Shown piece after piece: positions 17,090 to 51,891 of a stretch of 64,000 bases of DNA. This DNA is from Octopus vulgaris. Its lineage: Eukaryota. The notes under the pieces were generated by a model. It did no database searches. It was not told the origin of the DNA and saw nothing but the letters and a program-made list of their open reading frames with translations. The first letter of the stretch is position 1. Each line of letters begins with the position of its first letter. The DNA lies in NCBI GenBank assembly GCA_951406725.2, contig OX597820.1, positions 101,680,001-101,744,000 on the forward strand, given 5' to 3'. A program made the translations under genes and the position numbers.

Positions 17090-17124
17090 GTAAGTAAAAA
17101 TTTGAATCTAAATTTTGATTTGTA

Positions 17125-26855: not shown

Positions 26856-26891
<36 letters not shown>

Positions 26892-27055
26892 TGTAAAGTA
26901 TATTTGCCACCTAAATGTGGTTGACCCATAGGGGACAATGCTACTGTTGTTTATAGCTCCAGAAAGACATCTCCTGCTGACTAATGACACACAGTCTGTG
27001 TCCGATCAGTATTTGCAAGGGGAAAATCATCGTTCCCATCTCTATCCTTAAGTGA

Positions 27056-27102
27056 TACACACAGACCCAAGTTTCTGGGTAGTAACTCGTCATCAGCATG
27101 TG
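27056..27102 (-). ncRNA. Type I hammerhead ribozyme (weakened stem II)
   Basis: CACATG-CTGATGA-CGAGTTACTACCCA-GAAA-CTTGG-GTC-TGTGTG on minus strand. Confidence 0.65.
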
Positions 27103-27315
27103 ACAATCACCAGCTAGGGATGGGAAATGATTCCAAACACAAATTACTATATGCTTTTTCCTGTGACAAACTGATCTCGAAAAAAGAGAAACATGCAATA
27201 AGAAATCTCTGAGCAAGATGTAAACAGTAGCAGCATGATATTGTGAAGTACATTAGCCACCAAAAGGTGGCTGACCCACAGGGGATGAGATCAGCGACGG
27301 TTTGTCACTGGAAAA

Positions 27316-27540
27316 TAAGGCGGCGAGCTGGCAGAAACGTTAGCACGCCGGGTGAAATGCTTAGCGGTATTTCGTCTGCGTTACGTTGTGAGTTCAAATT
27401 CCGCCAAGGTCGACTTTGCCTTTCATCCTTTCGGGGTCGATAAATTAAGTACCAGTTACGCGCTGGGGTCGATGTAATCGACTTAATACCTATGTCTGTC
27501 CCCTCTGTGTTTAGCCCCTAGTGGGTAATAAAGAAATAGG
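27316..27540 (+). mobile_element. SINE family B with TSD
   Basis: AAGGCGGCGAGCTGGCAGAAACGTTAGC...GAGTTCAAATTCC...CCTTTCATCCTTTCGGGGTCGATAAA; TSD TTTGTCACTGGAAAA at 27301 and 27541. Confidence 0.9.
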
Positions 27541-27608
27541 TTTGTCACTGGAAAAAGCATATAGTATTTTGCGTTTGGAATCAGTTCCCATCCCTAGCTG
27601 GTAACTGT

Positions 27609-27653
27609 CACACGCTGATGACGGGTTACTACCCAGAAACCCAGGTCCATGTG
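27609..27653 (+). ncRNA. Type I hammerhead ribozyme
   Basis: CACACG-CTGATGA-CGGGT(TACT)ACCCA-GAAA-CCCAG-GTC-CATGTG; predicted cleavage after C27647. Confidence 0.75.
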
Positions 27654-29117
27654 TATCACGTAAGGCTAGAGATGGGAACAATGATTTCCATTTGCAAATA
27701 CTGATCGAACATAGTGTGTTGTTTGCCATGGAGGAGATGTCTTGCAGGGGCTATAAACAACAGTAGCATCATCCCCTATGGGTCAGCCACATTGAGGTGG
27801 CAAATATACTTCACAATGTCGTTCTGCTACTGTTTACATCTCGCTCAGAGATATATATATTGCTATATATTGCAATGGCCCAGTGGCTAGGGCAGCAGAC
27901 TTGCAGTTTTAGGATCGTGGTTTCGATTCCCAGACCAAGTGTTGTGAGTGTTTATTGAGCGAAAACACCTAAAGCTCCACAAGGCTCTGGCAAGGGATAG
28001 TGGTGAACCCTGCAGTACTCTTTCACCACAACTTTCTCTCACTCTTTCTTCCTGTTTCTGTCATATCTGTATTTCAAAAGGCCAGCCTTGTCACACATTG
28101 TGTCACGCTGAATCTCCCCGAGAACTACGTTAAAGGTACATGTGTCTGTGGAGAGCTCAGCCACTTGCACGTTAATTTCACAAGCAGGCTGTTGCATTGA
28201 TTGGATCAACTGGAACACTCATCATCGTAACCGATGGAGTGCTCTCTCTCTCTCTCTAAATATGTGTGTGTGCTTGCCAAGTCAAGCAGAGTTGTTCACC
28301 TTGGACGATAAAATGTGTCACATTTTGAGGTAGAACTAGTTTTTCTCAGCATACAACAGCTGACAAACGAAGTCACAGGTGTTTACCAATCAGCAATTGA
28401 ACAACTTCATGCCCGTGGCTTGCCAGGTAACATGGAGTGTTGTATGTGAACCTTCCATATCCTAAAACAAAGATGCCACATAAAAAGCATTGGTGTGGGT
28501 GCTGGGGTCCACATAAAAAACACAGGTGCTGGCACCAGGTAAAAAGCATTGGTGATGGTGCATAAAAGAACCCAGTACACTTTGTAAAGTGAGTGGCATA
28601 GGGAATGGCATCCAGCTGTAGAAACCATGCAAAAACAGACTATGGAACTTGGTGTGACCTCTGACCTTGCCAGCTCCTGTCAAGTTGTCCAACCCACACC
28701 AGCATGGAAAATGAACATGAAATGTTGATGATTCCTCTAATTCAATGATATTGAGGTCTACTTCTTTTGTTGTCACACACGTGTGTATGCACATGCATGT
28801 GTGTATGCACATGCATGTATGTGTGTGAGAGAGAGAGGGGAGGGAGGGAGAGAGAGAGATTGTATGAAGATGGAGATTCTCTTCTTCAACCTCGTATAAA
28901 TATACTTACAACATATATAAAGTATTATTCTCTAATTTGTTAAACTTATGTGCATGTGTGTGGGTATCCTCCTTTTACCACTTCAACAAAAACTAGAACA
29001 GAAATTTTGTTCTATGCAGAGAAGGTGAGTACAAGTGAAAGTCTGAAGAAGGATGCATCCCAGCACGTTGTAGTATATCACTCTAAGTAGATAAAATTTT
29101 AAGTGATTTTTTTTATT

Positions 29118-29625
29118 ATCATCATCATTGTTTAACGTCTGCTTTCCATGCTAGCATGGGTTGGATGATTTGACTGAGGTCTGGCAAACCAGATGGCTGA
29201 ACCAGGCTCCAATACTGATCTGGCAGAGTTTCTAAAGCTGCATGCCCTTCCTAACACCAACCACTTCGTTTGTGTAGTGGGTGCTTTTACATGCCACTGG
29301 CACGAGGGCCAGTCAGGTGGTACTGGCAACGGCAACGCTCAAATGATGCTTTTTACGTGCCACCTGCACAGGAGCCAGTCCAGCGGCACAGGCAACGACC
29401 TCGCACAAATGTTTTTTTCACATGCCACCAGCACAAGTGCCAGTAAGGCAATGCAGGTAACGATCACACTCGAATGGTGCTTTTTACATGCCACCGGCAT
29501 AGAAGCCAGTTTGTTGCTCTGGCAACAATCACGCTCAGATAGTGCTCTTAGTGCTCCACTAGCATGGATGCCTGTCATCGAATTAGATTTCGATTTCACT
29601 TGCCTCAACAGGTCTTCACAAGCCA
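29118..29625 (-). mobile_element. RTE LINE 3' UTR fragment
   Basis: Reverse complement similarity to 61290-61800. Confidence 0.8.
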
Positions 29626-30264
29626 ATATAAAAAGCAGATTCAGTAACAATTCTTAAGACCTAAGCAGTGAACTTGTTTTCAACAGTTACATTCCTATAA
29701 ATTTTCAATTCCTCAACACACATCTAGATTTCTCTAGCTTTTCAGAAGGTTGCTCTCAGACTGTTAAGATACCAGGAGTTCCAAAGGGGTAAGTAAATAA
29801 CACAAAATATACTATAGATTAAGTTTATAAACTACTATACAAGTTATCTAGACTGCAACATTGATTAATATCTTTTACTTGTTTCAGTCATTAGACTGTG
29901 GCCATGCTGGGGCATAGACTTAAAGTATTTTTAGTTGAATTAATTGATCCAGTATTTTTTTAAAAACCTGGTACTTATTCTTTGATCCTTTTGGCCAAAC
30001 TGCTAAGTTACAGGAACGTAAACACACCAACACTGGCTGTCAAGCGATGGTTGGGGACAAATACAGACACATACACAAATGCATACATATATGTATATAT
30101 AAATGGACTTCTGTCAGTTTTCATCTACCAAATCTACTCATAAGGCTTTGGTTGACCCAAGGCTATAGTAGAATACACTTGCTCAAAGCACCACACAGTA
30201 GGACTGAACCTGGAACCATTTGGTTGGGAAGCAAGCTTCTTACCATACAACCACACCAGAACCT

Positions 30265-31167
30265 ATCATCATCATCATCATCATTTAACGTCCGCTTTCC
30301 ATGCTAGCATGGGTTGGACGGTTCAACTGGAGTCTGGGGAGCCCGAAGGCTGCACCAGGCCAGTCAGATCTGGCAGTGTTTCTACAGCTGGATGCCCTTC
30401 CTAACGCCAACCACTCCGAGAGTGTAGTGGGTGATTTTATGTGCCACCGACACAGGTGCCAGACGAGGCTGGCGAACGGCCACGCTCGGATGGTGTTTTT
30501 TTTTATGTGCCACCGACACAGGTGCCAGACGAGGCTGGCAGACGGCCACGCTCGGATGGTGTTTTTATGTGCCACCGATACAAGTGCCAGATGAGGCTGG
30601 CGAACGGCCACGATCGGATGGTGTTTGTTACGTGCCCGGATGGTGTTTGTTACGTGCCCACAGCACGGAGGCCAGTCGATGCGGTACTGGCTACGGCCAC
30701 GTTCGGATGGTTTTCTTGTGTGCCACCGGCACTGGTACCACAAAGATACAAATTCCATTGATGTTCATCTATTTTGATTTGGTTTGATTTTCACTTGCCT
30801 CAACAGGTCTTCACAAGTGTCACATACTTGCCTCAACAGGTCTTCACAAGTGTCATAAGAAGGAAGGTATGCACAGGTAGACTGACTACGTCCCAGGTAG
30901 GGGCCACGGGTTATGGCCTGACTAGTCTTGCCGGGTCTTTGGATGGTGTTTTTATGTGCCACCAACACAGGTGCCAGATGAGGCTGGCGAACGGCCACGA
31001 TCGGATGGTGTTTGTTACGTGCCCACAGCACGGAGGCCAGTCGATGTGGTACTGGCTACCGCCACGTTCGGATGGTTTTCTTGTGTGCCACCGGCATTGG
31101 TACCACAAAGATACAAATTCCATTGATGTTCATCTATTTTGATTTGTTTTGATTGGATTTGATTATG

Positions 31168-31202
<35 letters not shown>

Positions 31203-33245
31203 CACTTGCCTCAACAGGTCTTCACAAGTGTCATTTGATTTGATTAGATTAGCACTTGCCTCAACAGGTCTTCACAAGTGTCATTTGATTTGATTAGCAC
31301 TTGCCTCAACAGGTCTTCACAAGTGTCATAAGAAGGAAGGTATGCACAGGTGGACTGACTACGTCCCAGGAAGGGGCCACGGGCTATGGCCTGACTAGTC
31401 TTGCCGGGTCTTCGGACAGGTGCCAGATGAGGCTGGCGAACGGCCACGACCGGATGGCGTTTGTTATGTGCCCACAGCACGGAGGCCAGTCGATGCGGTA
31501 CTGGCTACAGCCACGTTCGGATGGTTTTCTTGTGTGCCACCGGCACTGGTACCACTGAGATACAGATTCCATTGATGTTCATCTATTTTGATTTGTTTTG
31601 ATTTTTTTGATTTGTTGATTTGTTGATTTGTTGATTTGTTGATTTGTTGATTTTCACTTGCCTCAACAGGTCTTCACAAGTGTCACAAGAAGGAAGGTAT
31701 GCACAGGTGGACTCCCAGGTAGGGGCCACCACGATCGGATGGTGTTTGTTATGTGCCCACATCACAGAGGCCAGTCGATGCGGTACTGGCTACGGCCACG
31801 TTCGGATGGTTTTCTTGTGTGCCACCGGCACTGGTACCACAAAGATACAAATTCCATTGATGTTCATCTATTTTGATTTGTTTTGATTTTTTTGATTTGT
31901 TGTTCATTTGTTGATTTTCACTTGCCTCAACAGGTCTTCACAAGTGTCATAAGAAGGAAGGTATGCACAGGTGGACTCCCAGGTAGGGGCCACCACGATC
32001 GGATGGTGTTTGTTGTGCCCACAGCACGGAGGCCAGTCGATGCGGTACTGGCTACGGCCACGTTCGGATGGTTTTCTTGTGTGCCACCGGTACTGGTACC
32101 ACAAAGATACAAATTCCATTGATGTTCATCTATTTTGATTTGGTTTGATTTGATTTTCACTTGCCTCAACAGGTCTTCATAAGTGTCACACACTTGCCTC
32201 TGCCTCAACAGGTCTTCACAAAGTGTCACACACTTGCCTCTGCCTCAACAGGTCTTCACAAGTGTCACACACTTGCCTCAACAGGTCTTCACAAGTGTCA
32301 TAAGAGGGAAGGTATGCACAGGTGGATTGACTACGTCGCCGGGTCTTCGGATGGTGTTTTTATGTGCCACCGACACAGGTGCCAGATGAGGCTGGCGAAC
32401 GGCCACGATCGGATGGTGTTTGTTGTGCCCACAGCACGGAGGCCAGTCGATGCGGTACTGGCTACGGCCACGTTCGGGTGGTTTTCTTGTGTGCCACCGG
32501 CACTGGTACCACAAAGAATACAATTCCATTGATGTTCATCTATTTTGATTTGTTTTGATTTGATTTTCACTTGCCTCAACAGGTCTTCATAAGTGTCACA
32601 AGAATGAAGGTATGCACAGGTGGACTGACTACGTCCCAGGTAGGGGCCACGGGTTATGGCTTGACTAGTCTTGCCGGGTCTTCTCACGCACAGCATACTT
32701 CCATAGGTCTCGGTCTCTAGACATTTCCTTAGTGAGACCTAAAGTTCGAAGGTCGTGCTTCACCACCTCGTCCCAGGTTTTCCTGGGTCTACCTCTTCCA
32801 CAGGTTCCCTCAACTGCTAGGGTGTAGCACTTTTGCACACAACTATCTTCAGCCTTTCTCGTCACATGACCATACCAGCGCAGCCGTCTCTCTTGCACAC
32901 CACAACTGACGCTTCTTAGGTTCAACTTTTCTCTCAAGGAACTTACACTCTGACGATTATGAACACTGACATTACACATCCATCGGAGCATACTGGCTTC
33001 ATTTCTTGCGAGCTTACGCATATCCTCAGCAGTCACGGCCCATGTTTCACTACCATGTAGCATGGCTGTACGTACACATGCATCATACAGTCTGCCTTTT
33101 ACTCTGAGCGAGAGGCCTTTTGTCACCAGCAGGGGTAAGAGCTCTCTAAACTTTGCCCAGGCTATTCTTACTCTAGCAGTTACACTTTCAGCACACCCAC
33201 CCCCGCTACTGACTTGGTCTCCTAGGTAGCGGAAGCTATCAACTA
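30265..33245 (-). mobile_element. 5'-truncated RTE-clade LINE with tandemly amplified 3' UTR
   Basis: ORF 32665-33126 (LYDACVRTAMLHGSETW...RWYGHV...GRGRPRKTW) is the RTE RT C-terminus; 30265-32660 is repeated 3' UTR modules ending in (CAT)n. Confidence 0.88.
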
Positions 33246-33882
33246 AAATTAATATAAAGACAAACTTTACAGCAAAGGTAGAACTATATCTTCACCGTTA
33301 AATAAGTGTTGTAATAGATATATCAAAACAAACTTTGTTCAAACAAAACATTCTATAATTGCTATGTATAAACTTTATACTTATTTTTGCCTCAGTAAAT
33401 AATAAAAAGTTTTCATTTAATATTTTTAATTATTTACTTTTTTAAATTCAATATTACATTTCTCAATAGGTCAGCAAACTTTTGGAATCATTAGCATGCT
33501 GAGCAAAATGCTTAGTGGCATTTCATCTGTCTTTTCATTCTGAGTTCACATTCCAGAGGTTGACTTTGCCTTTCATCTTTTTGGGGTCAATAAAATTGGT
33601 ACCAATTGAGCACTGGGGTTGATGTAATCAACTTACCCCATCACTAAAATTGCTTTTTATCATTATATTTATATTTTGTCTGTCTATGCAATAGGATTAA
33701 ATTTTAATGTAATCAAAACTTCGGAGGGATTTTATAAAATATTACAGAAATAATATGCATATTACACAGCAATCACCACATTGTGAGAGAGAATACAGTA
33801 GTCATCATTAAAAAGCAGTTACTTTCAAGCTTGCTTTTAAATGTTCTTTATAAATTTAAAGTTTTTGATTAATAATACTTAC

Positions 33883-34036
33883 GAGGCAAAACTCGGAAGG
33901 CTTGGCCTTTGAAGCGATTCCACATATTTGGGACTCCATGAGAAATAGCTCCAGCAAATGCCTTCTGTTCAAATGGAGATAGACTGTAGGTAATGACACC
34001 ACTAATGTGGTGGAGATTTCCAAACATTTTACCCAT
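33883..34036 (-). CDS. UQCRQ: Cytochrome b-c1 complex subunit 8 (QCR8), first coding exon
   Basis: tttgctag|CCATG...|gtaagt; MGKMFGNLHHISGVITYSLSPFEQKAFAGAISHGVPNMWNRFKGQAFRVLP contains the MGxxFGNL and YSLSPFEQ hallmarks; total 82 aa. Confidence 0.97.
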
Positions 34037-35119
34037 GGCTAGCAAAAGAAAAAGAAATATTTCATTAAAATTTGTTTTTTCAATGACAACCTTAGTTAAA
34101 CTTCAACTAGTACATATGACAGACTTGATCTAGTAAATACTATCAACTGAGGAGCTCCAGAAATATGAAAGTTAGAAGACAAGTTTAAGTCTATAGATGA
34201 ACATAGATATTTTAGTTCAACAGGCTCAAAACATGAGGCAATGTAATCAGTTCTAAGAAGAAAATGTCTACACAGTGATGTATAACATAGATGATGCTTG
34301 AGAAGAAATAATATAATGAGCAGTGTGAATTTAAAAGAAAATGAACTGTGATGGATCTAAAAACACAGTCGTATATTTAAGAATGCTGTTTTACAATCGC
34401 TTGGTTCTGAATTATGATCCCTTTACTTGGTACCTTGGGTAAATGTCTTCCACTACAGCCTAAAGTCAACCAAAGCCTTGAATGGAATTGGATAAATAAA
34501 AATTGTATGGAAGCTCATGAGACATCTTAATTTACAGCACAAAAACATAAAAGTGCTCAACAAACTTAGTTGAAAGAGTTTAGGGGCCTGATATATGTTA
34601 ATTTTTGTGAGATAAACAGGGATCAAATATTCCTGAACCATGATTTCATGTGATCAGTTGGCCATACAGGTAAGTAATAGGATGATTCTGGGAATGTCCC
34701 AACATACATCAGATCATTTTTGATGAGAAATGTGGGCAAGTTCAAACGAGTTTGTTTTTATTTAACTCTTAAATTCTTGTCGTGCTTCATCATCGTTTAA
34801 CATCTTGCCTCCATGCCAACATGAGTTGGACAGTTTCACAGGAGCTAGAAAGCCAGAGGACTGTGCCAAACTCCACTGTCAACTTTGGTATGGTTTTTAC
34901 AGTTACATGTCCTTCCTATCACCAACCACTTTACAGAGTGGACTGAGTGCTTTAAATAAATCTCCCAATCCTTTTAGAACTACAGATTTTGATGAAAATG
35001 CAGTTAGTCTACTATAAATATATAACTATTGCATGAATTTGGGTGAAACTTGATGATCAGATGTAAAGATTGTTGGTGTATATTGTGAGTGTGGTTTTTA
35101 CTTGCTGTTATGTCCTTAG

Positions 35120-35529
35120 TACCTATTTCTATACTACCCACAAGGGGCTAAACACAGAGAGGACAAACAAGGACAGACAACGGATTAAGTCGATTACATC
35201 GACCCCAGTGCGTAACTGGTACTTATTTAATCAACCCCGAAAGGATGAAAGGCAAAGTCGACTTCGGCGGAATTTGAACTCAGAACGTAAAAACAAACGA
35301 AATACCTATTTCTTTACTACCCACAAGGGGCTAAACACAGAGAGGACAAACAAACGGATTAAGTCGAATATATTTACCCCAGTGCGTAACTGGTACTTAT
35401 TTAATTGACCCCGAAAGGATGAAAGGCAAAGTCAACCTCGGCGGAATTTGAACTCAGAACGTAGCAGCAGACGAAATACCGGTAAGCATTTCGCCCGGCG
35501 TGCTAACGACTCTGCCAGCTCACCGCCTT
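35120..35529 (-). mobile_element. SINE family B with internal duplication
   Basis: Two successive ~190-bp copies of the family B body. Confidence 0.8.
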
Positions 35530-37314: not shown

Positions 37315-37517
37315 GCCGGGCGAAATGCTTTGCGGTATTTCGACTGTCGTTACGTTCTGAGTTCAAATTCCGCCGAGGTCGACTTTACCGTTCATCCTTT
37401 CGGGGGTCGATAAATAAAGTACCAGTTTCGCACTGAGGTCGATGTAATCGGCTCAATCCGTTTGTCTGTCCTTGTTTGTCCCCTCTATGTTTAGCCCCTT
37501 GTGGGTAGTAAAGAAAT
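37315..37517 (+). mobile_element. SINE family B (5'-truncated)
   Basis: Similarity to 27316-27540. Confidence 0.8.
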
Positions 37518-38126
37518 ATACACTCTTATTTATGCAACAACGAAGGTGTGATTTGATTACTATTTCTAGCAGGTCGAACGAACAAGTAGAAAATGGTTAT
37601 GCTTCCTTGTTGACTCGGGAAAGGAGTATTATTTAGTAAATAGAGTAGAAAAACTAAGGTATTAAGTAGAAAGATAAATGATTAATCTCAGGACGAGGAA
37701 CACATTTTGTAGAAGAAAATATAGTTTTCAAAAACTGCTTTAAAATAACATTGAAAGCAACTCGAGAGAAAGAGTTTAACCTTCTTCGTAAATGATACAT
37801 TTGAAAGTCAGCAGTGAAATAAAATCGAAAAATTAAATTGTCTTTATTTATAAAACATCAAAACTATTAGTAAATTTAATATTTTATTAAAATTCGATAA
37901 AATAAATATCAATTTGTTAATGCAAAAAGAATTTTATTTTATAAAGATACACGAATGTAGTGGTTAAGTTAATGACATTTTTAGTTCTCGGGACGAAAAA
38001 ACACAGGGAAACAAGTCACGGAAATAAATTTAAAAATTTATATTTTCGGGTGAAAAACACTGTTGAAAGAAAAATGATTTTACCTTAAAATATGTGGAAA
38101 ATATATTTAATTAAACACAAACTTAC

Positions 38127-38200
38127 TGCTTCTTCTCTTCTGACCTTCGTCAAGTACAGGACAGGTGATAACACGAGAGAAAATCTGAGGTTATATCTTA
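38127..38200 (-). promoter_or_regulatory. UQCRQ: Candidate non-coding first exon / promoter region of UQCRQ
   Basis: The ATG exon starts with an acceptor, so an upstream exon is needed; minus-strand donor GCA|GTAAGT at 38126 lies in a repeat-free region with more CpG; 5' end unknown. Confidence 0.4.
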
Positions 38201-38494
38201 GTTTCGTATCTTAAATATATTGATGATAAGACGAGGAAACCCCGTAAATTTAAGATTATTGCTGTGAATTATTTCTTAATATGAATTAATAAAATCTTAT
38301 TATTGTGAAATTTAAATCTTATTTATTTTCTACTTGTCCGAATACGACTCGCTTCCTTTAGTTAAGGTACGAACCTAAAGCTATTTCTGCTTGATGTTTC
38401 ACGTTCTGTACTAGCAAGGCTTATGGGACAAGTACACGCGACCAAGTCCGTTTTCGGGATCTTGCGCTGTGTCCTTTATATCGGTGGAACAGCT

Positions 38495-38876
38495 CTCTCT
38501 TTACTCTTTTACTTGTTTCAGTCATTTGACTGCGGCCATGCTGGAGCACCGCCTTTAGTCGAGCAAATCGACCCCAGGACTTATTCTTTGTAAGCCTAGT
38601 ACTTATTCTATCGGTCTTTTGCCGAACCGCTAAGTTACGGGGACGTAAACACACCAGCATCGGTTGTCAAGCAATGCTAGGGGGACAAACACAGACACAC
38701 AAACATATACATATATACGATGGGCTTCTTTCAGTTTCCATCTACCAAATCCACTCACAAGGCATTGGTCGGCCCGGGGCTATAGCAGAAGACACTTGCC
38801 CAAGATGCCACGCAGTGGGACTGAACCCGTAACCATGTGGTTGGTATGCAAGCTACTTACCACACAGCCACTCCTA
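38495..38876 (-). mobile_element. SINE family A
   Basis: Reverse complement of 1147-1561. Confidence 0.85.
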
Positions 38877-39291: not shown

Positions 39292-39443
39292 GGCGTAACT
39301 TCGGTATAGGTACCGGATACATTTCAAGAAAGTGTTTTATATATATATATATATATGGGGGGTTAGGGGTGGGAGAAAAGGGTTTCTGTTATCTTCAGAA
39401 ATGTAAACAAAGCCACTTACGGTACCTATACCGAAGGATCGCC
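39292..39443. mobile_element. Merlin-like MITE
   Basis: TIRs GGCGTAACTTCGGTATAGGTACCG / CGGTACCTATACCGAAGGATCGCC; 8-bp TSD AAAATCTA. Confidence 0.85.
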
Positions 39444-40226: not shown

Positions 40227-43149
40227 ATGGTTCTGAATGCTATAAAAGTGAGAAATCTTTCCTTTCAGATTCACAATGGACTACAAAAGGCAGATGGAAA
40301 AACTGAGAGAGAATTAGACATAAAAGAATCAGGATCATTTCTTGATGAAGAACCAGATGAAAAAGAATCTGAAGTGGAAGAAGAGAGTATAGCTGAGGAA
40401 AAAACAGATGAAGAGGGAGAAACTGAAGCAGATGGCATGTTGCAGACTTCACCAGATGATCCTTTAGAAGAAACAGATGACGCTAATGATGAAAATGAAC
40501 AACAGACCACAAGGAACAGTTTATAGAACATCATCCTCATCATCATCATTTAACGTCTGCTTTCCATGCTAGCATGGGTTGGACGATTTGACTGAGGTCT
40601 GGTGAACCAGGCTCCAATCTGATCTGGCAGAGTTTCTACAGCTGGATGCCCTTCCTAACGCCAACCACTCCGAGAGTGTAGTGGGTGCTTTTACGTGCCA
40701 TCATCACAAGGGCCAGTCAGGTGGTACTGGCAATGGCAATGCTCAAATGGTGTTTTTTATGTGCCACCTGCACAGGAGCCAGTCCAGCGGCACTGGCAAT
40801 GACCTCGCTCAAAAGTTTTTCCCATGCCACCAGCACAAGTGCTAGTAAGGCGATGCAGGTAATGATCACGCTCAAATGGTGCTTTTTACGTGCCACCAGC
40901 ATCGAAGCCAGTTTGTTGCTCTGGCAATGATCACGCTCGGATGGTGCTCTTAGCGCTCCACTCGCATGGATGCCAGTCATCGAATTTGATTTCAATTTCA
41001 CTTGCCTCAACAGGTTTTCATAAGCAGAGTTTGGTGTCCAACGAAGGAAAGGTACGCATAAGTGGGCTGGTTACACCCCTGGCATAGGCCACGAGGTTAT
41101 GGTCTCACTTGGCTTGCCGAGTCTTCTCAAGCACAGCATATTTCCAAAGGTCCCAGTCACTAGTCATTGCCTCGATGGGGCCCAATGTTCAAAGGTCATG
41201 CTTCACCACCTCATCCCAGGAAACCTCTGGAAAGAAGTTCTCCATGTCTTCCACAGCATATATCAGGATTCACCAGGACCAAGAGTAGCAGCAAAACATG
41301 TGTACACTGCAAAGGACTGCTGGTCTTTGTTTCTCACTCAAGAACTTCTGAATGAATTAGTAGCTTGTACTAATAGATACATGGACAGTAAACAAGGAAA
41401 GCATAAAGATAAGTCAAAAGAGAGACATACTAATGAAAGGGAGAGGAAAGTTGCAATAGGACTGCTTTATCTATTAGGAGTTTTCAGAGCTAACTGAATG
41501 AATATGGAAGATGTTTGGGTGACCAATGGTACAGGAATTCAGATTTTTCTGGCAACGATGTCTTTGCAGCGATTTCGTTTCCTGCTGAGGTCTATGAGGT
41601 TTGATGGCATCCACACCCAGGCTGAAAGGAGGCTAGAAGATAAGTTTGCACCTTTTAGAAAGTTCTTTGGGAAATTTGTTAATAATTGTATCTCCAATTA
41701 TAATCTTCATCATCATCATTTAACATCCATTTTACATGCTGTCATAGGTTGGATGGTTTGACTGAGGACTGGCAAGCCAATAGGCTGCACCAGGCTCCAG
41801 TCTGATCTGGCAAGGCTTCTACAGCTTGATGCCAATGCCAACCACTCCAAGAGTGTAGTGAGTGCTTTTTATGTGTGACCAGCACAGGAGCTAGTCAAGC
41901 TGTTCTGGCTTCAATCATGTTCGGATGGTGCTTTTTACATACCACTGGCACAAGAGCCAGTTAGGAGGCACTAGTTTTGACCACATTCAGAAGGTGATTT
42001 TTATGTGCCACCGGCACAAGAGCCAGTCGGGAGCACTGGCATTGACCATGTTTGGATGGTGCTTTTTACATGCCACCAGCACGGGGAGCCAGTCAGGCAG
42101 CACTGACATTGACCCACACTTGAATGATGCTTATTACATGCCGCTAGCATGTCGGTCAGGCAGTACTGGTATTGGCCCCAACTACAATTTCATTTGACTG
42201 TCTCAGAGTAGATGAAATACTGGCTGCCAGAACTGTCCATTCTGGATCTACATGCCAAGTAAACCAGCCAAATATGGCATAAAAATATTTATTTTAGCAG
42301 ATGCTAAAACTTTCTGTGTCATGCCCTTCTGTAGTAGATAATTCAGGAGCAGCACTGGTAAAACAGTTGGTGTCTCATACAAATGGGTCTGGAAGAAATA
42401 TTACAATGAACAATTGGTTTACAAGTTATGGACTTGCAGTCGATCTCTTGAAGAATTATAGATTAACATTAGTTGGCAATCTGAGAAAGAACAAGATAGG
42501 ACTTCCTCCTCAGTTTGTAGCCACAAGAGGCAGAACTGAAAACACAAGCTTGTTTGGTTTCCAGAAGAATGTTACACTGACCTCATATGTTCCCAAGGAA
42601 GGTAAAAATGTCCCACTGAGCACAATGCAACATGATGCTGCAATTGATGAAAGTACAAAAGAAAACCAGAGATTAATATCTTCAACTACTAAAGGCGGGG
42701 TAGAAACTGTGGATCAGTTGCGTTCCATCTACAATGTTTCCAAAAATACTCGACATTGGCCACTTACAGTTTTCTACACCATACTCAATGTTGCAGGAAT
42801 AAATGCATACAATATATTCATGGCAAACTCTCAAACAGCTATCAGGCGCCAAAAGTTTTGGAGGGAATTGGGATTCAAATTGGTAGAGGACCATATCCAT
42901 CAGCACAAGACAAACCTATATTTGAGGAAAGACTTGATGCAATATTTCTCAGCATCTAAGGGATTACCTCCAAAACATCATCATGAAGATTCCATGCAAA
43001 GATGCTCATTGTTCCTCAGGTCAAAAGATCGTAAGACTAGAAATTGCTGCCAGAAGTGCTATAAGCCCATCTGCTTGGAACATGCCATGCACATTTGCAT
43101 TGACTGCTTTGCTCAGAGTGATGAAGATGATAGTACAAACAATGAGTAA
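40227..43149 (+). pseudogene. piggyBac transposase pseudogene (PGBD-like)
   Basis: Acidic N-terminus (40227-40526); MSLQRFRFLLRSMRFD..DKFAPFR; VDE and YMPSKPAKYGIK (~42210-42290); NITMNNWFTS, TKGGVETVDQ, RHWP, C-terminal Cys-rich domain; stops and inserts at ~40528-41220 and ~41706-42195. Confidence 0.92.
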
Positions 43150-43324
43150 ATAGTAAATATGAAAGGAGTACTCTCCCCACCAAAAAATAGTTTTATTTTG
43201 TTTGACCTTCATTTTCAAAGAGTACTTGTTTCTTTTTGTTTACGGTAACTAGTGAATAGATTTCACTGTAAATATATATATTTGTGAAGGCTGGACGGGC
43301 ACCTCAGTCAGCAGATCTCACTAT

Positions 43325-43371
43325 CCTGGGCTGATGATGGGTTAAGACCCAGAAACATGCATGTCCTCAGG
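43325..43371 (+). ncRNA. Type I hammerhead ribozyme, intact core
   Basis: CCTGGG-CTGATGA-TGGGT(TAAG)ACCCA-GAAA-CATGCAT-GTC-CTCAGG; palindromic helix III; stem I extends to 43277/43418. Confidence 0.9.
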
Positions 43372-45526
43372 TGTGAATCTTGGCTGGTGGGGGTGCTTGC
43401 CTCCCCTTCACAAATATAAGGACACAGAAAATGTGTCAAAGCCAACAGGAAGTGTTCGATGCTTCCTAGGGCTAAACAGCGGTGGTGTAATTCCCATACG
43501 GGACTGTCACGTTAAGTTGACAGTATACAACCACTCTAAATAAATACCTTATATCAAAATGTTTTTTGGTAATATTATCACTTAAGAACACATATAAAAT
43601 ACTAAAAATAGCTAAAAGTATGAGTAGGGTTCTCCATATGCTACCATACTAACCATGAGAAATACAGAACTGCACCACTGGAGGGTTAATGCATTCACAC
43701 TGGGTCACTAGTTATGTTATTTTGGTGTGCGCATTCTACAACACCTTCCCTTTCTTGTGTAATGCCACTGTTTTTTTGCTGGTTACAGGTGCTAAATAAA
43801 ACAAGGGGACAGAGATGTATTGTGAAAGAATTACGCATGTGGTGTAGTGCTTTGAGCCCATACAGTAGTGGTTGTGGTAGTGGTAAAGCAGTAAGATCCC
43901 CAGAAAAATTTTTTGAAATTGGACCTGAATCTGGGGCAGTGGGGGTGGACATCAACTTTGGAGACAATAGTGATTCTTGACTGACCTTTGCACAAGTTTA
44001 ATCATTCAGTTCTGATTTCAATAACAAACCGTCCCTTACTTTTGGAGGAAATTCCTAAAAGACAAGGTGAAATTCCTAGATCCCTATACTGTACTAAACA
44101 TGCAGGTAACATTGTTACCCTTCCTTTTCATTTTAATACAAAACCCTACTTCATAATGGTGATGCATATAACATGATTCATACTCTGTAAGCCATACAGT
44201 TTATTCAAAACAATTTTCTAAATAATTTATTTTGGCTCCCTTGAACTTTTGCACATGCAGGAATATGTAACAGAATTTCTAAACTTTGTTATGAGTCCTT
44301 GGACTTCACAATTCATGTCTGTGTATAAGTTGCTGAATGATGGCACCCAAGCTATTTGTGTACATAGTTGCTTGGTTTCCAGATTGAAACTGATGGATCA
44401 TAATTTTTTCAGCTTTTGTCAATAGAATGTTGAGAGGGAAACAAATGAAAAGGGCAATGGAATTGGTTATAGAAATGCTGTTGAACAACATTTCTGTAAC
44501 CAACCAATAACTACAGCATTATCTTAGCATTGAGATCTAGTTTTATAATGGCATTTCATCTTTTACAAGTTGATCCAAAAATATTTCTATCATGTTTTCA
44601 GTGCCTATTTGTCTTTTGGATAAACCCAAGATGATAAGTCTCCAGTTAATGATAAATTGTCTCCTTACTAACCAATATCATCATCATCATCGTTTAACGT
44701 CCGTTCTCCATGGGTTGGACAGTTTGACCGGGGATCTGGGAAGCCAGAAGGCTGTACCAACCAGGCTCCAGTCTGATCTGGCAGTGTTTCTACAACTGGA
44801 TGCCCTTCCTAACACCAACCACTCCGAGAGTGTAGTGGGTGCTTTTTACGTGCCACCAGCACAGGTGCCAGGCGAGGCTGGCAATGGCCACAATCAGATT
44901 GGTGCCTTTTACGTGCCATCAGCACGGAAGCCAGTCAAGGCGGCACTGGCATCGTTTATATATCAGTATAATAAAACGTTCTTACCATTTGTTGTCGATG
45001 TGCTTGATCTTGAGTAGAGTCAAACAGGAGATCAAAATGGGCCTAATGAACAAATGCCATATAGCAATTTGTGTTGAACAACTGAAAATATTCATTAACA
45101 CTAACAGAAAGAAATATAATATTGTTCCAAGGTTACTTTTCACATTAACGAGTTCACTTCCATGAGAGTATCAAACTTTGTCAACAGTTTTAGTAATCCT
45201 CACAAAACTTTTGAAATTAGATTTGGATTTGCACAAATTTTAACATTCTTTCTATGCTTTACAGATTTCTCATAATTTAGAACAGACTAACACATATTTG
45301 TCAGTGACATTTTCAAGTTTCGTTTAGAAAGGAAAGAAATGCACCCCCCCCACTCCAGTAAATTTGTGAAATGGTTGGTAAATGTAGTGAGAATGGCACA
45401 AAAGAATATAACTACTTTAAGCGCGCACTTGTAGGCTGAAGATTACAAGTGTACTTACCATGGTACTCTTGTTGAGCAGAGTGAATCAGGGTCTGTAAGC
45501 TTCCTTGATATATATATATATATATA

Positions 45527-46746
45527 TCAGGTCATCCCATATGTAATGTTTCTTGTAGACTTTGAAGAAATAAAAAAAACAAGTAATGTAACAATTTAAT
45601 CAACTATGTAATCCCCATCTGAAACAATAACATTCTTCCAATGCTGTAAAAGGTTTTTTACGTCAGCCTTATCGAAATCAGTTGGCTTAGAAGAGAAAAA
45701 CTCCTGAAGGTCTATTTCAAGGGCATCTAAGGAATTGTATTCTGTTCCACCAATAAAATTTTCCAGGCTTTGGAATAAGTGATAATCTGAAGGAGCAAGG
45801 TCAGGAGAATATGGAGGATGTGGAAGCGTTTCCTAACCTAGCTCTTCAATCTTGGAACATGTGGTTCTTGCACCACGAGGTCTGGCATTGTCATGGTGGA
45901 AATGACACCCTTTCACTTGACTGGAAAGTACCATTTTTCTGTAAGTTTTTCATTCAGTCTAACAATTTGTTCACAGTACACTTGAGCTGTAATTGTTTGG
46001 TTTTGTGACAAGGTTTCAAAGTCCCACCAAATGCTTAGCAAAACTTTCTGATGATGAAGAGCTTGTTTTGGATGGAGTTTTACTTGTTCTCCTGGCTGAA
46101 CCTATTGATGTCAGTGTTTAACATTCTTTTGGAGTATCCACTTTCCATCACCAGTCACTTGGCAGTTTAAAAATGGAAATTTTTTCTCATAGATAAAGAG
46201 TAGTACAGATGCTTTCTGTCATTGTTTTCACTCAGCTTATGTGAAACCCACTTGCCAAACTTAGACATGCTTCCAAGTTCTTGCAAATGGCAGTGGACAG
46301 TAGATGACAACTGCTAACTCTTCAATAGTTGCATCTGAGGTTCTTCCAGTAGCAGCTTTCAACACATCCTTACCAAAAGAGACAGGGTGCCCAGACATCT
46401 TCCAAGCTGAAATCCCTTTGTCAAAATTTATGGAACCAATTATAGCGCTTATGAATATTCAAACCACCTTTAGTATACACTTCTTGTACATTTTTTACAA
46501 TATTTGTTGCATTTTTGTCATTTTTATGCTTATGTCTTAAGAGCTCTTCTGTGACCTTTATTGTCATGAGGGGCTATCAAAGCAACAAATTATTATTTGA
46601 GTGTCTGCAAGTTAAAATCTATCTAACTGAAGCTTTCCTTGCTCTGTGGTATTCATGCACTCATGAAAAAAACCTTGTTTAAACATGTTAGAGCATGTTT
46701 CAACAAACAAGTAAAGTATAAAAAAGCAACATTACTTATGGAATGA

Positions 46747-46751
<5 letters not shown>
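45527..46751 (-). mobile_element. mariner element (decayed)
   Basis: 22-bp TIRs TCAGGTCATCCCATATGTAATG / CATTACTTATGGAATGATCTGA within (TA)n; minus strand HPPYSPDLAPSDYHLF at ~45775-45822. Confidence 0.9.
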
Positions 46752-46808
<57 letters not shown>

Positions 46809-46930
46809 CAAAATAAGAAAATGGAGAAATACACCTTAATCAATAATCAACTACCAGATAATACCCAATCACATAATTTATTAACCCACTACATATGAAC
46901 ATCAAGTTCAAACATAATAGTATAGAACAA

Positions 46931-46961
<31 letters not shown>

Positions 46962-46991
46962 CATACACACCCCCACACATATAAACATATA

Positions 46992-47885
46992 CGAGGTAAT
47001 ATCAAAAGGTTCCTGGACTAGTTATGTTTAATAAAAAATAACTTATTTACCTAAGTTTTAACATCATGTCCTTTGAAATTGTCAACTTGCACAGCAGTAC
47101 ACTGGTCCCAGTGTTCCTGCCACCTTTGGAATCTGGCCTGGAAGTCATTTCCGTAAGCATGTCAAGGACTTCTGTGATTCACTCTGGATCTCAACAGTGG
47201 AGTTAAAATGGTAACCTTTGAGCTACATTTCGATCTTGGGGAAGAGATAGAAGTTCACAAATGCTAAATTTGGCAAATAGGGCAGGTGCAGAAATGAAAC
47301 CATGTTGTTTTTGGTGAGAAACTCCTGAGTAAGGAGAGTTCGGTGACAGGGTGCATTGTCATCGTGAAGAGTCCATTTCTTTGTGCTCCACAGATCTGGT
47401 CGCTTTCACCAAATGCTTCAAAACATTAGAGTAGAACTCTCGATTAATAGTCAGGCCTGGAGAATGCATTCTTCATGCACAATAACACATTCTGGAGGGT
47501 GATGCTCATGGCAGGTCTTCCAGAGCATTCATCACCTTCCAGGGACTTCTTCTGCATTTGAAGCGTCTGCACCACTCAAAACATTGTGTATGACCCATTG
47601 CCTCATTGCTCACTGTAAGCTTGCCAAAGCATGCTCAATGTCTCTAGAAGACTTCCCAAGTTTGATGCAAAATTTCACATTGGCTTTTTGTACCTGTCCA
47701 TGACAAAATTACAGACTACATGTGATCACAAAAACACAAATTTCACAATTTGCAAAGTAAACAGCAATGTCACTCAGCACACTGCCTCGTAAAGGTCCCT
47801 GCTAGCTGTCACTGTACATGCAACCATGTGCTGCCATCTATTGGCTCACCACCGAACTAGTTTGGGAACTTTTTGATACCACCTG
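46992..47885 (-). mobile_element. Second mariner-like element (internally deleted)
   Basis: TIRs GAGGTAATATCAAAAGGTTCCTGGACTAGTT / AACTAGTTTGGGAACTTTTTGATACCACCT; minus-strand HDDNAPCH remnant near 47345-47365. Confidence 0.75.
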
Positions 47886-48256
47886 TGTGTGTATGTGTCT
47901 TTGTGTTTGTTCTCCACACTACTTGACCATTGGTGTGAGCTTGTTCATGTCCCCATAATGTATCAGTTTGACAAAAATGTCTCATAGAATATTTACCAAA
48001 CATAAAAAATAAGTACTTGGGTTGATTTATTTTATTAAACCTTTCCAGGCAGTGCTCCAGTATGGCTGCTGTCCAATGACTCAAACAAGATATATGAATA
48101 CACAAATAAGTGTATGTTGTGAGAGAATATGTATTTGTGTTTGTGTGTGTATATAGTGACACTGCTTCTACCATCAGCAGGTTCTTTTCATCTTTCATGA
48201 CAAGCCTTTGAAACTGATTCCACCAAATCAGTAAAGTTCATTTTCTATATATATAA

Positions 48257-48644
48257 CTAGCGGTATCGCCCAGCGTTGCTCGGGTTTGTAAGGGAAATAA
48301 CTATATAAGCATGTTTAGAGAGTTATAGCCAAAAAATGCATTAAAAATGGAAAAAAAATTATGGTAAATTTTTTTTTAAATCGTTGACTCATCGTAGACA
48401 TTTTTAGAGAGTTATTTCCCTTATATAATAGCGAAAAAAATGCATTAAAATGGAAAAAAATGATGGTAAATTTTTTTTTTAATCGTAGACTCATCGTAGA
48501 CACGCGCTAATACCCAGAAGGGCTCGATATGAATCACGACTATAAGATACCCGGTTTTTGTTAAACTGCACTGCAAAATGTGGGAGTAGTTAGGAATCTA
48601 AATTGTAGGAGACAGACACACAACTTCACTTTTATATATAAAGA
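48257..48644 (-). mobile_element. Non-autonomous Helitron
   Basis: Minus strand 5'-TC...hairpin CCCGAGCAACGCTGGG...CTAG-3', inserted between A and T; second copy at 58813. Confidence 0.85.
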
Positions 48645-48939
48645 TTTGATATTTCTCTTGACAGATTTTGTATATAATCTTAAAGAGTAACTTGTTATAT
48701 TAAATTTCATTAGTCACATGATCTTGTTTTCATGATTGCAACAGCAAACATTTAATGATGTTACATGTTTAGCTATTTTGTTTTTTCTGCAGACAGTCTG
48801 TTTCCTTTTGGTGCCATTTGACTTTGCAGACAGATCGTCTTGTACCTACTGTTCATTACAAAATATCACATATTCATGCTCTAATCAGAGATTGTCGCAG
48901 TGTAGTCTGTTAGTATACAAAACCACATAACAGAAATGA

Positions 48940-48988
<49 letters not shown>

Positions 48989-49399
48989 TCTCTCTCTTTC
49001 TCTCTCTCTCTCTTTCTCTTTCCTTCTCTCTCTTTCTCTCTCTCTCTCTTGCTCTTTCCCTCTCTCTCTCTTTCTCTCTCTCTCTTTCTCTTGCTCTCTC
49101 CCCCTCTCTCTCACTCTTATACACACACACACCACACATTCTCTTTTTCTCTCATTCTTTCAAAAGAGAAGTAACTTGTATTTATTCCATGTCAGCTGGT
49201 ATAAGTCAGCAAAGACGTTCTCTCATATAAACATAGACATACTGACACACAGAGAAAATGAGAAGGGGACACACTCATTCATACACACACACACACACAC
49301 ACCTGCATGTGCTCTTTGCTGTACATACATGCACATTGAGTTTAAAACACAAATTGTTTGAAATATGTTGTACTCATGTAACCATATTCTTTGCCTATT

Positions 49400-49716
49400 C
49401 CTAGGAGAGTTATTCAGATAGGGTCCTTAGGCAGCTCCTCCATAGGGCCCTATCAGAAGCAACGATCAACCATTAGACTTTCTAGTTGGATTTCCAAGTG
49501 TGACTGAGACTATGGATTTTATCCAATCATCTCATTCTTGGTTGACCCCTAGATCTTCTGCCTGTAAGCTTGTCTTGAAAAAACTGCCTTGCAGTTCTTT
49601 CCTATGACGTTCTAATCACATGTCTGTAATACCTTATCTGTGACTTCTCTGTGTGGAGAAGTATTGGTATAATGTGGAGAAACTCTTTGTTCTCCAACCT
49701 ATGCAACCTGTTGAGC
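49400..49716 (-). mobile_element. Decayed RTE-like LINE 3' fragment
   Basis: Minus strand GRRSRGQPRMR*LD motif. Confidence 0.5.
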
Positions 49717-49843
49717 AGGGCCGGATTCAGACCCATAGAGGCCCCATGCACTTAAAAGATTTTGGTATCCCCATATATATGTATTCAAAATATAAACAAT
49801 AAAATGAATTTTAATTTTTCAAAAGGAAACAAAACTAACAGTA

Positions 49844-50272
49844 AGGCGCAGGAGTTGCTGTGTGGTAAGTAGCTTGCTTACTAACCACATGGTTCTTGTT
49901 TCAGTCCCACTGCATGGCACCTTGGGCAAGTGTCTTCTACTATAGCCTCGGGTTGATCAAAGCCTTGTGAGTGGATTTGGTAGACAGAAGCTGAAAGAAG
50001 CCCATCGTATATATATATACATATATATACATGTATGTGTGTGTATATGTTTGTGTGTCTGAGTTTGTCCCCCTCCCCCGACATCGCTTGACAACTGATG
50101 CTGTTGTGTTTACGTCCCCATAGGTGTTGTGTTAGTGGTTCAACAAAAGAGACCAATAGAATAAGTACTAGGCTTACAAAGAATAAGTCCTGGGATCGAT
50201 ATGCTTGACTAAAGGCGGTGCTCCAGCATGGCCACAGTCAAATGACTAAAACAAGTAAAAGAGTAAAGAGAG
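49844..50272 (+). mobile_element. SINE family A
   Basis: Similarity to 1147-1561. Confidence 0.85.
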
Positions 50273-51611
50273 TAAGATGGAAAATAAAGGCCTATATATA
50301 CTTCCACTTTAATTATATTTAAGTTGTCTCCCACTTTTTTTTTAATTGCAATGTCTTTAATCAGATTCGCATTATGACACCATGAATACTTTGAAATTAT
50401 ATTTCCAATCATATAAACTGCTTTGAAAATTATTTCAGCAAGTTTAAAGGGATTTCATTTGTATTGTAAACCATTTACCATTTCTGTGATGCCCCCTTTC
50501 CTTTGATGCTCTAAGCACATGCTCATTTTGTTTAATGGTTTATCCTGTACTGTTGTTGAGTAACGTTACTCCAGGGATATTTTGGAGGAACCCCATTTCA
50601 TGCACTTTCAACCCATTATCCATCCTTCATGTTGTACTCTATGAAGAAAAGTAATATGTTTACTTGAACTCAGCCATATTTTTTATATGAACCATTTGAA
50701 GATATTTTGTGGTGCATTATTTTGCAGTAATCATTTACTTTAATTTCTTCTGCTTTGACCCATTGGAATCATCTTCATCTTTTTGACAGAATAAAAGTTT
50801 GTAATGGGCAATTTTTAAGGAATTATGAGTGCCAAACTACTCACTAAAACAAGACTCCAATAGTCAAAAATTATAGCTCCCCTAATTACAGAACCTGTAT
50901 CAACCTTAGAGAAATTATATCTCAAATTTAAATCAGGATGTATCTTCACTATAAAAAAAAGATCCATCTGTTCATCCAAACATTTTTGCATAGACCAAAC
51001 AAAACTTTCTTTGAGAACCAAACTCACAATTCATTTGCAATAAATATGAGATTCTAATAATAAACAGATTTCACTAAGTGAACATTTAGCTGTATGTGCA
51101 ATAATTAATCACCAAAAGTTCTGGTCTTCCCACTATTATTGTTCTGATAAAACCACAGACCAAATAGAGACAAATAAAGAAATAATTTTATTAAAAAATG
51201 TTAATCATGACTGATGGAATAGATATGTAACAGGTATGTATCTAAAATTTGTAACTAGACCTTCCAAATTGATTAATGACAACATCAAGGGACTGACCAA
51301 TAGCTCTCTTTTGACAAACACCATTTGCAATAATATAAAAAAAATGTCTGGAATGAAGAAGAACAAGAAGACTTCCTAGAAGAGTTAACTACATTTACAT
51401 GTGCAATTTGAGTGACCTATGTCACTTAATAAAAATGTTGTGCCCACTTATGCATTACTTTCAGTACAACCCTTGCATGTATATGGCGATAGGGAGATGT
51501 ATGTATGCATATACACGCACATATGCAATTATACTTTACTTAATGGCCTCTCACATTAATCTACTTTTGTTATATTAGGAAAATAGAATTTAAATAATAA
51601 GCAATAATAAA

Positions 51612-51891
51612 TCTCTGAACGAGATGTAAACAGTAGCCGCTCAACAACGTAAAGTATACTCAGCCATCTCAATATGGCTAACCACTAAGAGTGGATGTTA
51701 CTGTAGCTTTTAGCCCCAGGAGGTCATCGTCTCCAGCTGGCTTTGGGCACACTTTCTGTGCCCTTTGCAAATATCATAAGGGCACAGAAAGTGTGCCTAA
51801 AGCCAGCTGGAAACGATGATCTCCTGGGGCTAAAAGCTACAGTAACATCCACCCTTAGTGGTTAGCCATATTGAGATGGCTAGTATACTTT
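51612..51891. repeat. Fold-back of the structured-RNA element family (~115-bp arms)
   Basis: 51651-51765 is a near-perfect reverse complement of 51778-51891; terminus ATCTCTGAACGAGATGTAAACAGTAGC shared with 27204 and 27853. Confidence 0.85.

What the first reader, a model, noticed from the sequence alone, without database searches (positions are those of the whole stretch)
26892..51891. Shared multi-stem RNA domain 3' of the hammerheads, conserved in structure but not sequence
Seen in sequence: three diverged families (26892-27010 on -, 27700-27853 on +; 43420-43540; 51778-51891) share one order of elements. First a hairpin (GACACA-GAAAA-TGTGTC; GGCACA-GAAAG-TGTGCC; GACACA-GACTG-TGTGTC). Next a GCC...GGGCT-closed bulged stem and an A-rich linker. 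Then an outer stem (AACAGTAGCA/TGCTACTGTT or AGCGGTGGTGTA/TACAACCACTCT) enclosing two hairpins (CCC-CTAT-GGG or TCCC-ATAC-GGGA; GCCAC/GTGGC, CTGTCA/TGACAG or AGCCAT/ATGGCT), followed by RTATAC. Compensatory differences imply selection on the fold. I do not recognise the motif. Inference: an RT-recognition element or an undescribed structured RNA module.
Basis: partly seen in the sequence, partly recalled or inferred. Interest (0 to 1): 0.75.

Follow-up and report, generated by a model that had tools for sequence, protein, structure and literature searches.

The report
Conserved fold ending Penelope mini-elements
Short non-coding mobile repeats in this animal genome end in a set of predicted RNA hairpins whose sequence and base-pairing are both kept across three diverged families, and this stretch is likely the handle by which a Penelope-type reverse transcriptase would grip the RNA and start copying it.

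Summary
The repeats are real, but the title is backwards. Six copies (three families, three insertion sites) are 3' ends of a 350-nt non-coding unit with the signature of Penelope-like elements (PLEs): type I hammerhead, head-to-head inverted truncated copies, a partial tandem, a 45-55-nt 'tail' at one end only, and a 13-bp target duplication. The 3' domain is 68-71% identical between families; it is the hammerhead-bearing rod that keeps its fold without detectable sequence identity. Compensatory changes exist (B vs C1: 4 among 21 pairs, P about 0.001, but helices were chosen on these same copies); hairpins H1, H4 and H5 are best supported, the outer stem is weak. Family C has no hammerhead here. 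1,330-1,759 contigs per DNA run in three organisms show a high-copy family. No Rfam match; nine literature searches found no description of such a fold. Best reading: the domain is the cis-signal bound by the PLE RT next to its two start sites (inferred from Frangieh 2024; untested; autonomous partner not found). The scan found PLE mini-elements with hammerheads before on other DNA, not this domain. New variant of a known kind.

The parts
26890..27194 (-). Copy A1: one near-complete unit (linker, hammerhead rod, 3' domain), ending at the SHORT terminus against a (TA)n tract
27052..27110 (-). Type I hammerhead of A1 (helix I 6+5 bp with 3x1 loop, helix II 4 bp, short palindromic helix III); predicted cleavage after 27064
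   Evidence: majority letters give the palindromic loop
26890..27002 (-). 3' domain of A1: H1 26986-27002, H2 26955-26982, H4 26925-26934, H5 26904-26923
27195..27288 (-). Copy A2: 5'-truncated (H4, H5, 45-nt tail), in partial tandem directly upstream of A1; unit length 350 nt
   Evidence: join bridged by diverged contigs
27289..27863 (+). Copy A3: head-to-head with A2/A1; hammerhead rod, 3' domain (H1 decayed) and 46-nt tail 27818-27863 (LONG terminus)
27601..27659 (+). Type I hammerhead of A3; predicted cleavage after 27647
27316..27555 (.). Later, unrelated dispersed repeat (SINE-like; label recalled) inserted into the 5' part of A3, with 17-bp duplication 27299-27315 / 27539-27555
43277..43537 (+). 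Copy B: diverged family; hammerhead rod 43277-43418 plus 3' domain 43421-43537; lies 3' of a decayed transposase ORF; target duplication unclear
43317..43377 (+). Type I hammerhead of B; helix I differs from family A's by double changes; predicted cleavage after 43365
51597..51765 (-).
51761..51890 (+). Copy C2: 5'-truncated, head-to-head with C1, ends at the SHORT terminus; no hammerhead
51584..51596 (+). Left 13-bp target-site duplication of insertion C
51891..51903 (+). Right 13-bp target-site duplication of insertion C

Best explanation
The copies are 3' ends of a 350-nt non-coding, hammerhead-bearing repeat that is likely mobilised in trans by a Penelope-like element, and the hairpin domain that ends them is likely the RNA signal that the element's reverse transcriptase would bind before starting cDNA at one of two nearby sites. 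SHOWN: unit anatomy; two termini 45-55 nt apart, one long and one short end per inverted insertion; partial tandem; 13-bp target duplication; high copy; sequence and pairing conservation of the domain. INFERRED: transcription through a tandem gives an RNA with hammerhead, domain and tail; the RT/GIY-YIG protein of an autonomous PLE binds H1-H5, nicks AT-rich DNA and primes cDNA at the short site (8-14 nt past H5) or the long site (end of the tail); early termination and fold-back give the 5'-truncated head-to-head copies. The hammerhead rod needs only its shape and drifts in sequence; the 3' domain is read by a protein and keeps both.
For: Insertion signature matches published PLE units (Craig 2021 and Arkhipova 2013 passages): A and C each have one tailed and one untailed arm; TSD 13 bp, reached by 3 of about 4,950 AT-rich random pairs. 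In other genomic copies: contigs run on from A1's short end into the tail (30, 29, 22 contigs in X1, X4, X14); at 27195 they leave into unlike AT-rich flanks (17 and 20 contigs, agreement about 0.5) and summed depth falls 3-9 fold; 7 of 15 listed joints (55 in all) are strand inversions at varied places; 6 of 32 listed pieces (4,647 in all) with 19-31 differences bridge the tail-to-start join. Domain identity 68-71% between families against 50-58% (shuffle level) for the hammerhead rod. Double changes: 4 of 21 pairs B vs C1, null mean 0.75, P 0.0006-0.0009; inner pairs only 3 of 13, P 0.0002; tool count 5 of 37 pairs, 90% of 157 cells paired against 25-47% when slid. Majority letters restore 2 of A1's 4 broken pairs and turn 2 G.U pairs into G-C. 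In the one PLE studied in vitro, the RNA needed for insertion lies between the hammerhead and two internal RT start sites that define the tail (Frangieh 2024). No reading frame is open through the domain in both A and C, so coding does not explain the conservation.
Against: Only three families and six copies; helices were defined on the same sequences that were tested. Shuffle control for the number of double-change pairs is 35/500, and one of the 5 is probably an alignment artefact of A3's decayed H1. RNAalifold recovers only H1, H4, H5. Pair probabilities of H2-H4 are low in A1, A3, C2, and H3 is about 0.4 in A3 and C1. No strand asymmetry of folding. Tail is 45-55 nt against 30-40 published. 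No autonomous partner found; the one octopus Hydra-clade element in Craig's supplement has another hammerhead, and the domain motifs searched were not found there. Higher identity of the 3' part could come from recent swapping of 3' ends. A related hammerhead in L002 is not followed by the domain. No binding, cleavage or expression data.
Confidence: 0.55

Rival explanations
1. Same element class, but the hairpins are general self-pairing of a retrozyme-type (circular) RNA, kept for stability or ligation; the higher 3' identity reflects recent common ancestry or exchange of 3' ends, and RT reads only a short signal at the tail.
For: Retrozyme RNAs are described as highly self-paired, 170-400 nt (Cervera 2020 passages); the unit is 350 nt and folds with 63% of bases paired as a circle; the hammerhead rod folds more stably (z -3.3 to -5.9) than most domain copies.
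Against: General pairing would not keep loop and linker sequence, yet the rod under such a constraint has lost all identity while the domain has not; short termini sit 8-14 nt past H5 in three families.
Confidence: 0.25
2. The domain acts as DNA: recognition or homing site for the GIY-YIG endonuclease, or an internal promoter of the pLTR, with hairpins secondary.
For: The D. virilis tail was needed for endonuclease recognition (as cited in Frangieh 2024); pLTRs hold promoters; sequence is conserved; folding has no strand bias.
Against: Double changes that keep pairs are not expected of a duplex-DNA site; the adjoining hammerhead fixes an RNA strand.
Confidence: 0.1
3. The double changes are mutational, not selected: template switching during reverse transcription perfects quasi-palindromes (mechanism recalled), and the domain is a neutral passenger kept because 3' ends are always copied.
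For: Fold-back junctions occur in these elements (palindromic C junction; inversions); few families; several pairs are broken at stem ends.
Against: Does not explain why the domain is more conserved than the rod, nor the same helix lengths and order in three families.
Confidence: 0.07
4. A free-standing new structured RNA (for example a second ribozyme) carried by the repeat.
For: No Rfam match; multi-stem fold with double changes.
Against: Every copy ends at PLE-type termini; no catalytic-core-like invariant loop can be told from three families; no hit for domain patterns in viral, metagenome or prokaryote collections.
Confidence: 0.03

Closest known systems
pLTR plus 'tail' of endonuclease-bearing Penelope-like elements (Arkhipova 2013 PMC3846280; Craig 2021 PMC8557442)
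   Same: Hammerhead in the terminal repeat, inverted 5'-truncated copy head to head, partial tandem, tail at one end only, short TSD in AT-rich DNA or (TA)n.
   Different: No ORF: the tail runs into a short linker and the next unit; tail 45-55 nt rather than 30-40; TSD 13 bp rather than the 8-10 bp reported in rotifer; the passages read describe no conserved multi-stem fold 3' of the hammerhead.
PAc (Poseidon, Anolis) template RNA (Frangieh 2024 PMC11167929)
   Same: Region between hammerhead and two 3' termini; termini next to a stem-loop; AT-rich targets.
   Different: In PAc this region is coding (first 172 nt of the ORF), the binding motif is hypothesised but not mapped, and the first start site is about 85-92 nt past the hammerhead cut against 172-174 nt here. 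The PAc sequence file could not be read, so the folds were not compared.
Non-LTR retrozymes (Cervera and de la Pena 2020 PMC7229834; Li et al. 2026 bioRxiv 10.64898/2026.07.22.740005)
   Same: Non-coding unit of 350 nt, type I hammerhead with short palindromic helix III, self-paired fold, proposed PLE origin and PLE-driven mobility.
   Different: Here dispersed, inverted and truncated insertions with tail and TSD rather than arrays of complete units; circular RNA and cleavage not tested.
Rfam families (release 15)
   Same: Nothing at the domain; the long C palindrome scores 68.8 bits on MIR3440, below its 105-bit cut-off.
   Different: No family reaches its threshold on any copy, and no hammerhead model is listed.

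Membership tests
PLE insertion unit (endonuclease-bearing clades) | Type I hammerhead in the terminal repeat | tested here: met
   A1, A3, B carry core, helices I-III and palindromic loop; C copies are truncated 3' of it
PLE insertion unit (endonuclease-bearing clades) | Inverted 5'-truncated copy head to head, and partial tandems | tested here: met
   Loci A and C; 7 of 15 listed joints in other copies are inversions
PLE insertion unit (endonuclease-bearing clades) | Optional 30-40-nt tail at one end only | tested here: met
   One tailed and one untailed arm in A and in C; lengths 45, 46, 55 nt, longer than published
PLE insertion unit (endonuclease-bearing clades) | Short target-site duplication in AT-rich DNA | tested here: met
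   13 bp at C; B inconclusive (6 bp exact); A lies at a (TA)n tract. 1 of 3 insertions clear
Autonomous PLE | ORF for RT plus GIY-YIG endonuclease | tested here: not met
   No such ORF in or beside the copies; not filed as autonomous
Non-autonomous PLE derivative | 3' end shared with an autonomous PLE of the same genome | not testable with these tools
   No genome held; motifs not found in Craig's Naiad/Hydra/Chlamys supplement, which holds no DNA set known to me for octopus Neptune or Poseidon families
Non-LTR retrozyme | Non-coding unit of about 170-400 nt with type I hammerhead | tested here: met
   350-nt unit, hammerhead, stops in the frames through the domain
Non-LTR retrozyme | Tandem of two or more complete hammerhead-bearing units | tested here: inconclusive
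   Window has a partial tandem with one hammerhead; the tail-to-start join recurs in 6 of 32 listed pieces, none spanning two hammerheads
Non-LTR retrozyme | Self-cleavage and circular RNA in vivo | not testable with these tools
   Only contigs were available
Any Rfam family | Score at the gathering threshold | tested here: not met
   cmscan of the whole window at E<=1, 62 matches; only a 5S match elsewhere passes its threshold

The most novel reading that the evidence does not exclude
H1-H5 is a portable, non-coding RT-docking scaffold shared by whole PLE lineages: the PLE counterpart of the protein-binding junction of telomerase RNA (PLE RT is TERT's sister group), which sets the two cDNA start sites by distance from H5 and lets any RNA that carries it be written into DNA by the PLE enzyme.
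Probability: 0.15. Interest if true: 0.75.

Novelty: new variant of a known kind. Interest (0 to 1): 0.42.

Why it matters
How a PLE reverse transcriptase picks its RNA and why it starts at two internal sites is open: the only in vitro study narrowed the signal to 172 coding nucleotides without mapping it. A non-coding, high-copy element in which that interval is conserved in sequence and pairing, while the neighbouring ribozyme rod drifts freely, gives a concrete helix-by-helix target for that question and for the claim that animal retrozymes ride on PLEs. If it is only general self-pairing, it is one more ordinary PLE-derived repeat family.

Tried and rejected
No whole genome held, so no genome-wide copy set or R-scape-type test. 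Rfam: nothing at the domain. Domain and tail patterns: 0 hits in viral contigs, metagenome contigs, prokaryote genomes. Hammerhead pattern: 0 in viral and prokaryote genomes; 3 in metagenomes, of which L001/L003 are one chance match inside a bacterial gene and L002 is a hammerhead without the domain. Loose hairpin-order descriptor: 133 hits, not discriminating. Strand test by folding energy: no difference. Covariance model R1 finds no further copy in the window or L001-L003 (next best E 0.1). Supplement motif searches: 0 informative hits in Craig 2021 (30; a short 8-mer hit unrelated places), Bonar 2026 (49; TE library is on Zenodo, unseen), Martelossi 2023 (71; 12 of 33 files searched), Marino 2022; Frangieh's figures and PAc sequence file could not be read. 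Coding explanation rejected (stops in A and C). Helitron/Helentron or MITE considered because of hairpin plus short end motif and inverted arms (features recalled); rejected because arms are unequal and variably truncated, carry a hammerhead, and C has a 13-bp duplication. A third terminus at the end of the tail arm was suspected from loose-end consensus letters but cannot be separated from contig ends. Scan look-ups by place and sequence gave nothing relevant.
Full report
1. Setting. The window is AT-rich animal DNA with microsatellites, dispersed short repeats, LINE remnants, a decayed DDE transposase (PF13843) and a ligand-gated channel exon. Its repeat content looks like an octopus genome; that label is my recall and no call names the host. 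No whole genome is held.

2. What is there. Self-comparison and alignment give six copies at three sites. Site A: A2 (27195-27288, -) runs straight into A1 (26890-27194, -) as a partial tandem of a 350-nt unit; A3 (27289-27863, +) faces them head to head and was later interrupted by another repeat with a 17-bp duplication. Site B: one diverged copy, 43277-43537. Site C: C1 (51597-51765, -) and C2 (51761-51890, +), head to head, 96% complementary over 104 nt, flanked by a 13-bp duplication (3 of about 4,950 AT-rich random pairs reach 13). A1, A3 and B hold type I hammerheads inside a long rod; C is truncated 3' of it. Each inverted insertion has one short end (A1, C2) and one end longer by 45-55 nt (A3, C1; A2 too).

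3. The family elsewhere. 20 of 24 listed runs hold part of 26892-27316 (five coded organisms, 11 studies); I laid 4 of them. 1,371, 1,759 and 1,330 contigs of three DNA runs from three organisms align, so this is a high-copy family (depth is no copy number). Contigs continue from A1's short end into the tail (30, 29, 22 contigs). At 27195 they leave into unlike AT-rich flanks (17, 20 contigs) and summed depth drops 6.5, 8.6 and 3.2 fold: the long end is a real terminus. 7 of 15 listed joints (55 in all) are strand inversions at different places. 6 of 32 listed pieces (4,647 in all), with 19-31 differences, bridge the tail-linker-start join, so the tandem join is a family trait; a seventh bridging piece is the locus itself. 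Majority letters (40 of 170 rows shown) repair 2 of A1's 4 broken pairs, turn 2 G.U pairs into G-C and make hammerhead loop 3 palindromic; the other two broken pairs (outer end of H5) and the partner of the H1 change are not among the rows shown.

4. Is the fold selected? On the unedited MAFFT alignment 90.4% of 157 cells pair, against 25-47% when slid; 5 of 37 pairs show double changes (35/500 shuffles; covariation score 2/500), one of them probably an artefact of A3's decayed H1. RNAalifold keeps H1, H4 and H5 only (B is one column off at H2). In a register set by hand the changes are: H1 A-U/G-C; inner H2 G.U/G-C/A-U; H5 A-U/U-A, C-G/U-A and C-G/U-A (the last broken in B); one extra A-U pair in C's H4. 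B against C1: 11 differing sites in 21 pairs give 4 double changes and 1 break; random placement gives 0.75 and 5.7 (P 0.0006-0.0009 and 0.004); with helix ends dropped, 3 of 13 pairs, P 0.0002. The helices were chosen on these sequences, so the P values are optimistic. Against: folding z is strong only for B and C1, and equal on both strands; pair probabilities of H2-H4 are low in A1, A3, C2; hairpin order alone is common (133 hits). The outer stem is weakest: 9 of 9 pairs in A3, 7 of 9 in C1, 7 of 9 in B only if B lacks about 17 nt; it cannot form in short-ended A1 and C2 (the H3 and one H6 row were out of register and are superseded).

5. The title is reversed. Between families the 3' domain is 68-71% identical (shuffles 52%, z 6.7-12.2), whereas the two arms of the hammerhead rod are 50-58% identical between A and B (z 0.0-1.3) although helix I and its 3x1 loop are kept by double changes. 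Shape-only constraint shows in the rod; the domain keeps sequence too, as expected of a protein-read signal (inference) or of recently exchanged 3' ends (rival).

6. Mechanism. Shown: anatomy, termini, duplication, abundance, conservation. From papers: PLE insertions are partial tandems with an inverted truncated copy and a 30-40-bp tail at one end (Craig 2021, passages; Arkhipova 2013, passages, where pLTR sequences sufficed for mobilisation in trans); the tail lies between two internal RT start sites, and the RNA from +20 to +172, 3' of the hammerhead, is needed and thought to hold the binding motif (Frangieh 2024, parts 1-2 of 4). Inferred: the domain here fills that interval and is the docking site; short ends lie 14 (A1), about 14 (B, end uncertain) and 8-10 nt (C2) past H5. 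I put PLE-driven non-autonomous mobility at about 0.9 and the RT-docking role at about 0.6 of that.

7. Comparison. It works like a pLTR without ORF, that is like the non-LTR retrozymes that Li et al. 2026 (parts 1-3 of 5; supplements closed) derive from PLEs and Cervera 2020 (passages) describe as 170-400-nt self-paired circles; the hammerhead fits Cervera 2014 (parts 1-2 of 4). It is not an autonomous PLE; retrozyme membership is inconclusive (no full tandem, no RNA data). O. vulgaris has 190 PLE families (6.8% of the genome), 31 recently active (Bonar 2026, parts 1-2 of 3 and supplement), so a partner is plausible if the host guess holds; its library was not visible and may already list this repeat. 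Hydra-1_Obim has a different hammerhead. Reviews seen as passages describe the hammerhead as the PLE terminal fold and no other.

8. Novelty. No Rfam match. Nine searches listed no paper on a conserved multi-stem fold 3' of PLE hammerheads or on octopus hammerhead elements; subscription papers, Repbase and Dfam were not searchable, and Frangieh's supplementary figures, which show an RNA fold, were unseen. The element class is known, the domain seems undescribed, its role is inferred. New variant of a known kind, interest 0.42.

Noticed in passing
window 42298-43149 (+), 43682-43690: Decayed piggyBac-type transposase (PF13843, E 1e-20) whose apparent end with TTAA lies near 43690; copy B sits in its 3' non-coding part.
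   Followed up: partly
window 27316-27555; related copies near 23212-23445, 24471-24638, 33485-33635, 35121-35529, 37315-37518, 59683-60091: High-copy short dispersed repeat (SINE-like, label recalled), 78-89% identical; inserted into A3 with a 17-bp duplication.
   Followed up: no
window 9597-9715 (-): 5S rRNA-like sequence above the Rfam threshold (58.1 bits) beside a (TA)n tract; pseudogene or 5S-derived SINE head.
   Followed up: no
window 32665-33291 (-) and 60527-61213 (+): Two related C-terminal remnants of a LINE reverse transcriptase (RTE-like by recall; no Pfam hit).
   Followed up: no
window 16712-17125 (+): Exon of a Cys-loop ligand-gated ion channel, transmembrane region (PF02932, E 7e-12).
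   Followed up: no
L002 576-625 (+) and 2-378 (-): Minimal hammerhead with the same helix II stem as families A/B, head to head with a broken RT whose motifs resemble Hydra-clade PLE proteins in Craig's supplement (compared by eye); no 3' domain follows.
   Followed up: partly
window 26899-26928 in run X14: The H5 block has about ten times the summed depth of the rest of the domain in organism E, as if another abundant family shares only this hairpin.
   Followed up: no
window 26935-26939 with 26890-26894 (-): In A1 five bases just 5' of H4 are complementary to the last five bases at the short end; with the tail-arm stem this could give alternative closing helices for short and long forms.
   Followed up: no
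hammerheads at 27064-27096, 27615-27647, 43331-43365: Helix II is closed by C.A (family A) or U-A (B) next to the core instead of the usual G-C; may lower activity.
   Followed up: no
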